DNA of 64,000 nucleotides. Origin: Escherichia coli (lineage in GTDB: Bacteria > Pseudomonadota > Gammaproteobacteria > Enterobacterales > Enterobacteriaceae). The notes below the pieces were generated by a model, which was given only the letters and a program-made list of their open reading frames with translations, was not told where the DNA came from and made no database searches. Below, one piece after another: positions 26,246-26,860 of the stretch. The number at the start of each line of letters is the position of its first letter. The stretch's first letter is position 1. The stretch is from the NCBI RefSeq assembly GCF_050920415.1, contig NZ_CP169309.1; one strand, given 5' to 3'. The position numbers were made by a program, and so were the translations under genes.

Positions 26246-26321
26246 ATCGAACCCCTTAGATTTTCCTAAGGAAACTAGATCGTAGAGAAACCTAAGTCAA
26301 GAAAAATTAGAATTCCCTAAT
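26246..26321. promoter_or_regulatory. Divergent dicC/dicA promoter-operator region
   Basis: 18-bp palindrome CCTTAGATTTTCCTAAGG (26254-26271) and CCTAAG half-site at 26291. Confidence 0.5.
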
Positions 26322-26729
26322 ATGAAAAACGAAACCTTCGGTGCTCGCCTCTTACATAGGCGTAAAAAATTAAAACTGTCTCAGGCCGCATTAGGTAAGC
26401 TGGTCAAAGTGGCTCACGTAACAATTTCTCAATGGGAAAGAGATGAAACACAGCCGGCGGGGAAAAGATTATTCGCACTGAGCCAAGCGCTTCAGTGCTC
26501 ACCGACTTGGCTTCTTTTTGGGGATGAAGATAAACAGCCAGGCGAACCGATCCCAGATAATCAGCCAGCCATTCTGACAGAAGATCAAAAAGAGTTACTT
26601 CAACTGTTCGACGCACTGCCTGAATCAGAGCAAAAGGCCCTGTTGTCAGAGATGCGTGCTCGAGTTGAAAATTTCAACAAACTTTTTGAAGAACTACTCA
26701 AAGCTCGCAAAAGAAGTGCAAACAAATAA
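26322..26729 (+). CDS. dicA: CI-like HTH repressor DicA
   Basis: 135 aa, Qin DicA-like (LFALSQALQCSPTWLLFGDEDKQP, C-terminal MRARVENFNKLFEELLKAR). Confidence 0.9.
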   Translation: MKNETFGARLLHRRKKLKLSQAALGKLVKVAHVTISQWERDETQPAGKRLFALSQALQCSPTWLLFGDEDKQPGEPIPDNQPAILTEDQKELLQLFDALPESEQKALLSEMRARVENFNKLFEELLKARKRSANK

Positions 26730-26794
26730 CCCCCCCTTTTTCTCCACACCCTGTAATAAAAAGCACAAATTTTCAAACACTTGTGTTTTTTACA

Positions 26795-26860
26795 TTAAAA
26801 AACTTAGGTTTTTCTACATAAAAACCTTGACCACTCACCTTAGGTTATTCTAAATTTCAT
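26795..26860 (+). promoter_or_regulatory. Operator-flanked promoter candidate for the ydfA-dicB operon
   Basis: TTGACC at 26826 with CTTAGG sites at 26803 and 26839. Confidence 0.4.

What the first reader, a model, noticed from the sequence alone, without database searches (positions are those of the whole stretch)
26246..26860. CCTTAG/CTAAGG operator palindromes at the dicC/dicA switch and upstream of ydfA
An 18-bp perfect palindrome CCTTAGATTTTCCTAAGG lies between the divergent dicC and dicA starts. Further CTTAGG half-sites flank a TTGACC -35 element downstream of dicA. This suggests one repressor controls both the immunity switch and the cargo operon.
Basis: seen in the sequence. Interest (0 to 1): 0.35.

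Follow-up and report, generated by a model that had tools for sequence, protein, structure and literature searches.

The report
Operator sites of a DicA repressor
The repeated CTTAGG motifs are the binding sites (operators) of a DicA-type prophage repressor at its two target promoters. This is a sequence variant of a switch already characterised in the E. coli K-12 Qin prophage and in phage P22, so it is ordinary but correctly spotted.

Summary
The 18-mer CCTTAGATTTTCCTAAGG is at 26254-26271, but it is not a perfect palindrome. It has 6-bp inverted arms around an asymmetric 6-bp centre. The real unit is an 18-bp operator with a TTAG-N6-CTAA core, and there are five copies. Three (O1-O3) lie between dicC and dicA. 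Two (OB1, OB2) bracket the -35 TTGACC and overlap the -10 of the promoter downstream of dicA.

The layout matches K-12 Qin site for site (Oc/Om/Oa and dicBp), where DicA is known to repress both dicCp and dicBp. It also matches P22 PL/OL1 position by position. The "cargo operon" is the early-left dicBF operon: ydfA, a DicF-like RNA, dicB, ydfD, recE-like exonuclease, xis and int.

In about 80 related loci the operator cores never vary while spacers and flanks do. Heteroimmune relatives carry TGTTAG instead of CTTAGG, and this tracks helix-2 residues (TQR versus SQAA).

Verdict: observation partly confirmed, interpretation supported, a new member of a known kind, low interest.

Side observation: a conserved, apparently undescribed leader RNA (5' hairpin plus a small pseudoknot) follows the promoter. 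It is conserved across several different immunity types.

The parts
26018..26245 (-). dicC (Cro-type regulator, 75 aa)
   Evidence: NCBIfam DicC NF007282, 168 bits against a cut-off of 130. 84% identical to K-12 DicC, with the differences concentrated in the N-terminal helix-turn-helix part.
26254..26271 (.). O1: CCTTAG-ATTTTC-CTAAGG (core 26256-26269). It is the best dyad and the equivalent of K-12 Oc. It abuts the dicC -10 and covers the predicted dicC start. Its left arm also forms the dicC Shine-Dalgarno sequence (CUAAGGGG on the minus strand).
   Evidence: The CCTTAG arm is invariant in 23 distinct relatives, while the bases just outside it vary.
26272..26300 (-). Predicted dicC promoter: -35 TTGACT (26295-26300), 17-bp spacer, -10 TAGTTT (26272-26277), with +1 near 26265.
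   Evidence: Read from the sequence and placed by homology with the K-12 dicC promoter (TTGACT-17-TATCTT), which was mapped by 5'RACE in PMC3441716. The -10 matches consensus at only 3 of 6 positions and was not reported by the promoter scan.
26280..26297 (.). O2: TCGTAGAGAAACCTAAGT (core GTAG-N6-CTAA, 26282-26295). It fills the dicC promoter spacer.
   Evidence: It is 94% complementary to OB1 (pair I2). The core is conserved in relatives.
26305..26322 (.). O3: AATTAGAATTCCCTAATA (core 26307-26320). It covers a -10-like TAGAAT (26308-26313) and ends at the dicA ATG, which implies a leaderless or near-leaderless dicA mRNA.
   Evidence: It is the equivalent of K-12 Oa. That it acts as an autoregulatory site is an inference.
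26322..26729 (+). dicA (repressor, 135 aa)
   Evidence: NCBIfam DicA NF007257, 237 bits against a cut-off of 101. 62% identical to K-12 DicA. Residues 2-69 match the P22 C2 N-terminal domain, E = 1e-21.
26757..26792 (+). Putative dicA terminator: an A-tract, the stem GCACAA/UUGUGU, then a U-tract.
   Evidence: RNA fold -9.2 kcal/mol, z = -2.9, and 0 of 200 shuffles fold as well. Divergent loci have a different hairpin at the same place. The stem is too poor in G+C for the terminator scan to report it.
26802..26819 (.). OB1: ACTTAGGTTTTTCTACAT (core 26804-26817), centred at about -52.5 of dicBp.
   Evidence: TTAG and CTA are invariant in 54 distinct relatives.
26827..26856 (+). dicBp (PL-equivalent promoter): -35 TTGACC, 18-bp spacer, -10 TAAATT, with +1 near A26863.
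   Evidence: Promoter scan. It aligns with K-12 dicBp and with P22 PL, whose annotated +1 is the A of CCATCAGC.
26838..26855 (.). OB2: CCTTAGGTTATTCTAAAT (core 26840-26853). It overlaps the promoter spacer and the -10, and is centred at about -16.5.
   Evidence: The cores are invariant while the 6 bp between the -35 and OB2 are hypervariable. It aligns position by position with P22 OL1, AATTAAGAAGTCTTAAAT.
26863..26932 (+). Conserved leader of the dicBp transcript. It contains a hairpin (26868-26883), a conserved single strand CUCAGCAAACAGUUC (26884-26898), and a candidate H-type pseudoknot: S1 pairs 26899-26902 with 26908-26911, and S2 pairs 26904-26907 with 26916-26919.
   Evidence: No Rfam match. 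Only one copy in the window. It lies just outside the finding's coordinates.
26933..27085 (+). ydfA (DUF1391), the first gene of the repressed operon.
   Evidence: 88% identical to K-12 YdfA; phrog_751.
28280..28329 (+). DicF-like small RNA
   Evidence: Rfam RF00039, 44.1 bits, E = 3e-8, just below the gathering score of 48.
28509..28885 (+). dicB (28509-28697) and ydfD (28694-28885)
   Evidence: NCBIfam DicB, 119 bits against a cut-off of 100. tblastn gives 53% and 65% identity to K-12 DicB and YdfD.

Best explanation
This is the immunity switch of a Qin-type lambdoid prophage of E. coli, inserted next to potC. A dimer of the 135-aa repressor DicA has an N-terminal domain that is a P22 C2-type helix-turn-helix. 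It binds 18-bp operators with the core TTAG-N6-CTAA; the strong half-site is CTTAGG.

At the rightward promoter (dicCp, the PR equivalent):
- O1 sits on the -10/+1 region.
- O2 fills the spacer, so bound DicA excludes RNA polymerase and shuts off dicC and the replication genes behind it.
- O1 at about -59.5 probably also activates the weak, near-leaderless dicA promoter, as Oc does in K-12.
- O3 covers the dicA -10 and start codon, which would allow negative autoregulation.

At the leftward promoter (dicBp, the PL equivalent, reached after a dicA terminator):
- OB2 overlaps the spacer and the -10.
- OB1 lies just upstream of the -35. Together they silence ydfA, DicF, dicB, ydfD, the recE-like exonuclease, xis and int.

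The Cro-type DicC is expected to use the same operators to flip the switch.

What is shown: the sites, their clustering, their conservation, and the gene identities. What is inferred from K-12 and P22 homology: binding by DicA, the transcription start points, activation, and autoregulation.
For: Five dyads confined to the two promoter regions. They overlap a TTGACC-18-TAAATT promoter.

DicA, DicC and DicB memberships are above the curated cut-offs. YdfA and YdfD and a DicF-like RNA lie downstream.

The layout matches K-12 Qin one to one. Oc, Om and Oa are spaced 25 and 25 bp, against 26 and 25 bp here. Both dicBp regions have two dyads around TTGACC.

Published genetics show that DicA represses dicBp 22-fold and also represses dicC, and that an A-to-C change in the CTAA core of Oc abolishes binding (PMC10448788, PMC3441716).

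The N-terminal domain is homologous to the P22 C2 domain that has been solved bound to DNA. dicBp/OB2 aligns base by base with P22 PL/OL1.

Phylogenetic footprint: the cores are invariant, whereas spacers, flanks and even the neighbouring genes vary, across 24 distinct OR-type and 45 distinct PL-type sequences.

Operator type switches together with the repressor's helix-turn-helix in heteroimmune relatives.
Against: There are no binding data for this allele. In K-12, an in vivo assay detected DicA binding to Oc but not to Om or Oa (PMC3441716, data not shown there), so O2 and O3 may be weak, cooperative, or DicC-specific sites.

Only two dyads were found at dicBp, whereas the literature speaks of three. 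The predicted dicC -10 is poor (3 of 6) and all start sites are inferred. Part of the conservation of the O1 left arm could reflect its second role as the dicC Shine-Dalgarno sequence.
Confidence: 0.85

Rival explanations
1. Only O1 and OB2 (the best dyads) are true DicA sites. O2, O3 and OB1 would then be conserved because the Cro-type DicC binds them, or because they form promoter elements of dicCp and dicA, rather than because DicA binds them.
For: K-12 DicA bound Oc but not Om or Oa in vivo (PMC3441716). O2 and OB1 each carry one degenerate half (GTAG, CTAC). O2 coincides with the dicCp spacer and -35 edge, and O3 with a -10-like TAGAAT.
Against: O2 and OB1 are 94% complementary over 16 nt although they sit at different promoters, which argues for a shared protein ligand rather than promoter function. 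Their cores are as invariant as those of O1 and OB2. Weak sites filled cooperatively are normal for lambdoid OR2/OR3.
Confidence: 0.25
2. The O1 inverted repeat acts at the RNA level. It would form a 6-bp hairpin in the dicC 5' UTR that sequesters the Shine-Dalgarno sequence, rather than acting as a protein-binding operator.
For: The left arm of O1 is part of the dicC Shine-Dalgarno sequence (CUAAGGGG, then 4 nt, then AUG).
Against: The predicted dicC transcript starts inside O1, so the hairpin would be incomplete. The same dyad recurs at four other places where no Shine-Dalgarno sequence is involved. The K-12 Oc lies outside the dicC Shine-Dalgarno sequence, yet it is the proven DicA site.
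Confidence: 0.04
3. The motifs are chance repeats in AT-rich intergenic DNA.
For: Window-wide, the degenerate core is no more frequent than expected (13 hits against 15.8).
Against: Three hits in 80 bp never occurred and five in 600 bp occurred once in 300 shuffles. The sites are invariant across relatives and positionally homologous to K-12 and P22 operators.
Confidence: 0.01

Closest known systems
dicA-dicC-dicBp immunity locus of the cryptic prophage Qin, E. coli K-12 (Bejar et al. 1988; Yun et al. 2012, PMC3441716; Ragunathan et al. 2023, PMC10448788)
   Same: The gene order is the same: YdaT-like gene and dicC leftward, dicA rightward, then dicBp, ydfA, dicF, dicB and ydfD. Three dyads lie in the divergent gap and two lie around a TTGACC -35. 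The TTAG-N6-CTAA core is the same. The repressor is the same 135-aa type without a RecA-cleavage domain. The conserved leader is also shared.
   Different: DicA is only 62% identical. The strong half-site is (A/C)CTTAGG rather than TGTTAG(T/C), so this is probably a separate immunity specificity. O1 lies 7 bp closer to the dicC start and overlaps its Shine-Dalgarno sequence. No Rem antirepressor homologue is present in the window. A 216-aa gene replaces ydfB and ydfC.
Phage P22 immC: C2 repressor and Cro with OR1-3 and OL1-3 (C2 N-terminal domain-operator structures 2R1J, 3JXB)
   Same: The DicA N-terminal domain is homologous to the C2 N-terminal domain (E = 1e-21). The operators are 18 bp with TTA at positions 3-5. 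dicBp aligns with PL (TTGACC, operator, TAAATT, and CATCA at +1). Divergent repressor and cro genes are followed by CII-like, O-like and P-like genes.
   Different: The half-site is TTAGG, not TTAAG. DicA has a short helical C-terminal domain instead of the RecA-cleavable S24-type domain. The P22 leader carries nutL (boxA and boxB) followed by the N-type gene 24, whereas here a different conserved leader is followed by ydfA.
Phage lambda OR/OL switch (CI and Cro)
   Same: The logic is the same. One repressor acts on multiple operators at two early promoters. The repressor gene is transcribed towards the PL-type promoter. The maintenance mRNA is leaderless. A Cro antagonist and bistability are present; bistability was shown for K-12 dic in PMC10448788.
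   Different: The operators are unrelated in sequence (17 bp in lambda), the repressor C-terminal domain differs, there is no evidence here for OL-OR looping, and there is no SOS cleavage.

Membership tests
Qin-type dic locus (DicA/DicC control of the dicBF operon) | DicA-family repressor | tested here: met
   NCBIfam NF007257, 237 bits against a cut-off of 101, over the full length 1-135. 62% identical to K-12 DicA.
Qin-type dic locus (DicA/DicC control of the dicBF operon) | Divergent DicC (Cro-type) gene | tested here: met
   NF007282, 168 bits against a cut-off of 130. 84% identical to K-12 DicC.
Qin-type dic locus (DicA/DicC control of the dicBF operon) | A promoter downstream of dicA drives ydfA, dicF, dicB and ydfD | tested here: met
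   Promoter-like site at 26827-26856. YdfA, DicB and YdfD homologues. DicF-like RNA at 44.1 bits, slightly below the gathering score of 48.
Qin-type dic locus (DicA/DicC control of the dicBF operon) | Operators of Oc type (TTAG-N6-CTAA core) at both dicCp and dicBp | tested here: met
   Five dyads in positions homologous to K-12 Oc, Om, Oa and the two dicBp dyads. The bases flanking the core differ (CTTAGG against TGTTAG).
Qin-type dic locus (DicA/DicC control of the dicBF operon) | DicA physically binds the operators and represses both promoters | not testable with these tools
   Known only for the K-12 allele (PMC3441716, PMC10448788).
P22 C2 / lambdoid helix-turn-helix repressor-operator systems | N-terminal helix-turn-helix domain homologous to P22 C2 | tested here: met
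   phmmer against PDB sequences: 1ADR, 2R1J and 3JXB, E = 1e-21, residues 2-69.
P22 C2 / lambdoid helix-turn-helix repressor-operator systems | Three operators at each of the two early promoters | tested here: inconclusive
   Three are found in the dicC/dicA gap. Only two are detectable at dicBp with at most 1 core mismatch or by the matrix scan.
P22 C2 / lambdoid helix-turn-helix repressor-operator systems | P22 operator half-site TTAAG | tested here: not met
   The sites here read TTAGG or TTAGA in the same register as P22 OL1, so they are not P22-immune operators.
P22 C2 / lambdoid helix-turn-helix repressor-operator systems | RecA-cleavable C-terminal (S24 peptidase-type) domain | tested here: not met
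   The protein is 135 aa. Homology to C2 stops at residue 69, and the C-terminal half matches only DicA-type models. PMC10448788 notes that the Ala-Gly cleavage site is absent.
nut or put antitermination sites (considered for the conserved leader only) | boxA/boxB sequence, or similarity to HK022 put; a copy in both early operons | tested here: not met
   No resemblance to HK022 putL or P22 nutL. No Rfam match. A covariance-model scan of the whole window with filters off finds only the one copy.

The most novel reading that the evidence does not exclude
The operators may be only the front half of a portable early-left promoter cassette. Directly after OB2, the transcript (about 26863-26925) carries a leader found in neither Rfam nor the literature searched. 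It consists of a 5' hairpin, the invariant single strand YAG(M)AAAACGUUC, and a 21-nt H-type pseudoknot.

This leader is conserved behind at least five different operator or immunity types and in front of at least ten different first genes. It sits where lambda and P22 have nutL, in prophages that lack an N gene.

It could be a cis-acting RNA for processivity, antitermination or stability. Such an element would let dicBp transcripts pass the DicF terminator and reach dicB, xis and int.
Probability: 0.2. Interest if true: 0.65.

Novelty: new member of a known kind. Interest (0 to 1): 0.22.

Why it matters
The switch itself is textbook. [quoted passage not shown]

The modest added value is threefold:
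- The operator set of a second, common DicA immunity type is now defined. About 14% of complete E. coli genomes carry at least 80% of this 1.1-kb region.
- There is a testable specificity rule. Helix-2 residues SQAA go with the half-site CTTAGG, and TQR goes with TGTTAG.
- The promoter and operator coordinates needed for reporter or induction studies are now available.

The conserved leader RNA next to the operators is the only element here that might be new biology.

Tried and rejected
- Third operator at dicBp: none was found with at most 1 core mismatch or by the matrix scan.
- Further DicA sites elsewhere in the 64-kb window: the best other score was 11.6 bits, at 34557. A K-12-like dyad at 20387 scored 9.3 bits. 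Neither is convincing.
- Rfam match for the leader or the terminator region: only noise.
- Similarity of the leader to HK022 putL or P22 nutL: none.
- A second (right-operon) copy of the leader: none.
- Thermodynamic signal for the leader: the minimum free energy is no better than shuffles (z = +0.4 to +0.8). The case for the leader therefore rests on covariation only.
- Rem antirepressor homologue: none in the window.
- C4/isrK plus Rha/Ant module as the DicA antirepressor: it has its own strong promoter and lies beyond int, so it probably belongs to a separate tandem element.

Full report
OBSERVATION.

The sequence CCTTAGATTTTCCTAAGG is at 26254-26271, between the dicC start (26245, minus strand) and the dicA start (26322). 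It is not a perfect palindrome. The 6-bp arms CCTTAG and CTAAGG are complementary, but the central ATTTTC is not self-complementary.

CTTAGG occurs at 26803-26808 and 26839-26844, on either side of TTGACC at 26827-26832. The repeat finder and a degenerate search show that the real unit is a dyad with core TTAG-N6-CTAA, present five times:
- O1, core 26256-26269
- O2, core 26282-26295 (GTAG..CTAA)
- O3, core 26307-26320
- OB1, core 26804-26817 (TTAG..CTAC)
- OB2, core 26840-26853

The clustering is not chance. Five of the window's 13 core matches lie within 600 bp and three within 80 bp. In 300 dinucleotide-preserving shuffles these clusters occurred once and never, respectively. A half-site weight matrix scores the five sites 18-21 bits and nothing else above 11.6. 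That test is circular for the five sites, but it does show there are no further sites in the 64 kb.

WHAT THE LOCUS IS.

The flanking genes pass curated family cut-offs: DicA 237 bits against 101, DicC 168 against 130, DicB 119 against 100. Behind dicC lie a YdaT/CII-like gene, an O-like gene and a P-like gene.

Downstream of dicA, in order, are:
- ydfA
- a 216-aa gene
- a DicF-like RNA (28280-28329; 44.1 bits, just under Rfam's gathering score of 48)
- dicB and ydfD
- a RecE-like exonuclease
- xis and int, judged by position and length against a related annotated prophage

The chromosomal genes potC, potD, cobB, nagK and lolE follow. The "cargo operon" is therefore the early-left, PL-equivalent dicBF operon of a Qin-type lambdoid prophage of E. 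coli.

COMPARISON WITH K-12 QIN.

The K-12 region has the same layout. Oc is TTGTTAGTCATAACTAACAA, followed by Om and then Oa (TTAGCATTAGCTAA) in the dicC/dicA gap. Their centres are 25 and 25 bp apart, against 26 and 25 bp here. At dicBp, K-12 has TTAGCTATAGCATA, then TTGACC, then TTAGTCATGGCTAA.

Published work shows the following:
- DicA binds Oc in vivo.
- A single A-to-C change in its CTAA core abolishes binding.
- Oc overlaps the -10 of the 5'RACE-mapped dicC promoter.
- DicA bound at Oc activates dicA and represses dicC (PMC3441716).
- Deleting dicA derepresses dicBp 22-fold, and DicA and DicC form a bistable switch (PMC10448788).

The same paper reports that DicA did not bind Om or Oa in that assay. 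This is the main caveat for O2 and O3.

COMPARISON WITH P22.

DicA residues 2-69 match the P22 C2 N-terminal domain, E = 1e-21. P22 PL reads TTGACC-ATTT-AATTAAGAAGTCTTAAAT-TTTAGCC-A(+1). The window reads TTGACC-ACTCA-CCTTAGGTTATTCTAAAT-TTCATTC-A.

The two are in the same register: an 18-bp operator with TTA at positions 3-5 and the same -10. This places the dicBp +1 near A26863. The half-site differs (TTAGG against TTAAG), and DicA lacks the cleavable C-terminal domain.

PROMOTER GEOMETRY (INFERRED).

- dicCp is TTGACT (26295-26300), a 17-bp spacer, then TAGTTT (26272-26277), on the minus strand, with +1 near 26265.
- O1 therefore covers about -6 to +12. O2 fills the spacer.
- O3 covers a -10-like TAGAAT (26308-26313) and ends at the dicA ATG, which implies a leaderless dicA mRNA.
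- O1 is centred at -59.5 from that start, as Oc is in K-12.
- At dicBp, OB2 is centred at -16.5 and OB1 at -52.5.
- A weak A-tract/stem/U-tract hairpin (26757-26792, z = -2.9) probably terminates dicA transcription before dicBp.

CONSERVATION.

Eighty IMG/VR loci encoding relatives of this DicA (68-100% identical) were fetched. They contain 24 distinct OR-type and 45 distinct PL-type sequences. In all of them the TTAG/CTAA cores and the -35 are invariant. In contrast, the operator centres, the 6 bp between the -35 and OB2, the bases just outside O1, and the neighbouring genes all vary.

HETEROIMMUNE RELATIVES.

A pattern scan for the conserved leader brought in PL-type regions with other operator types. 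Within the DicA family the two specificity groups separate cleanly:
- Repressors with helix 2 beginning SQAAL have (N)CTTAGG operators (80 loci, 4 helix-turn-helix variants).
- Repressors beginning TQR(S/T/D) have TGTTAG operators (6 loci, 4 variants).
- This holds regardless of whether helix 3 is AHVTISQWE or SHVSVSQWE.

The C or G just 5' of TTAG thus appears to be read by helix-2 residues, with an Arg in the G-reading type. This is an inference from few independent lineages.

VERDICT ON THE FINDING.

The interpretation, one repressor acting at both promoters, is supported by strong comparative evidence and by experiments on the K-12 allele. The system is a heteroimmune member of a known kind. 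Interest is low.

SIDE OBSERVATION: THE LEADER.

The first 60 or so nucleotides of the dicBp transcript are conserved in K-12, in the window and in all related loci. This holds behind at least five different operator types and before at least ten different first genes. One-nucleotide indels between close relatives rule out coding.

Every one of 24 distinct 5' segments folds into a hairpin at about +6 to +21. The pair flanking the CAC/GUG core switches between A-U, U-A and U-G.

After the invariant single strand YAG(M)AAAACGUUC come two short helices that overlap as an H-type pseudoknot. On a plain MAFFT alignment of 27 sequences:
- 90% of cells pair, against 32-47% when the partners are slid.
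- Four of the 8 pairs show changes on both sides (C-G to A-U, U-A or G-C).
- The covariation score is 0.252, against 0.123 in shuffles (0 of 500 reach the observed value).

Allowing the linker to vary in length, all 29 distinct variants form at least 3 contiguous S2 pairs and 21 form at least 4. Shuffles reach those levels in 20% and 6% of cases.

All wobble pairs are G-U on the sense strand, which points to RNA rather than DNA. The counts come from related sequences and reflect few independent events.

The element has no Rfam match. It does not resemble HK022 putL or P22 nutL. It is present once in the window, and its minimum free energy is unremarkable.

It occupies the position of nutL in prophages without an N gene. 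A role in processivity, antitermination or mRNA stability is a hypothesis only.

Noticed in passing
window 26863-26932 (+); K-12 locus L001 1638-1705: A conserved, non-coding leader of the dicBp transcript. It has a 5' hairpin (26868-26883), the invariant single strand CUCAGCAAACAGUUC, and a candidate H-type pseudoknot (26899-26919) with compensatory changes in both stems. It occurs behind at least 5 operator types and before at least 10 different first genes. It is not in Rfam and is present in a single copy.
   Followed up: partly
window 28280-28329 (+): A DicF-like small RNA just upstream of dicB scores 44.1 bits (E = 3e-8), below Rfam's gathering score of 48. It was therefore missed by the default scan of the window.
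   Followed up: partly
window 32847-34500 (+): A strong promoter (TTGACA-18-TATAGT, 11 of 12) drives isrK and C4 antisense RNAs, followed by a Rha/Ant-family protein (33103-33675). The module lies between the prophage integrase (31732-32850) and potC, so it looks like a separate P1/P7 immI-like module or a tandem remnant. Whether its antirepressor targets this DicA is unknown.
   Followed up: partly
window 26246-26259 (-): The dicC Shine-Dalgarno sequence (CUAAGGGG, or CUAAGGAG in relatives) is made of the left arm of O1. Operator and ribosome-binding site therefore share bases. In K-12 the two are separate, because Oc lies 7 bp further from dicC.
   Followed up: partly
window 26018-26245 (-): DicC is 84% identical to K-12 DicC. 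Nearly all the differences lie in residues 4-31 (the helix-turn-helix), and the C-terminal 45 residues are almost identical. This suggests a mosaic junction inside the gene, or selection for new operator specificity.
   Followed up: no
window 20387-20404: An isolated K-12-type dyad, TGTTAGCATAGCCTAATA (perfect TTAG-N6-CTAA core), lies about 130 bp from the hok/sok locus (hok 20525-20677; sok RNA 20672-20847). It scores only 9.3 bits with this allele's matrix and is probably chance.
   Followed up: no
window 34829 onward; locus L146: The potC-adjacent attachment site holds a different dic prophage in E. coli strain MFDS1022581: a K-12-type dicA allele with ydfB and ydfC. Its chromosomal flank is 100% identical to the window. 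The same site is therefore used by heteroimmune members of this prophage family.
   Followed up: partly
window 13697-13888 (-), 28341-28486 (+), 15296-15540 (-): There is a full STnc100 small RNA copy in the late region and a partial sub-threshold copy between DicF and dicB. A cluster of three phage-borne tRNA genes is also present.
   Followed up: no
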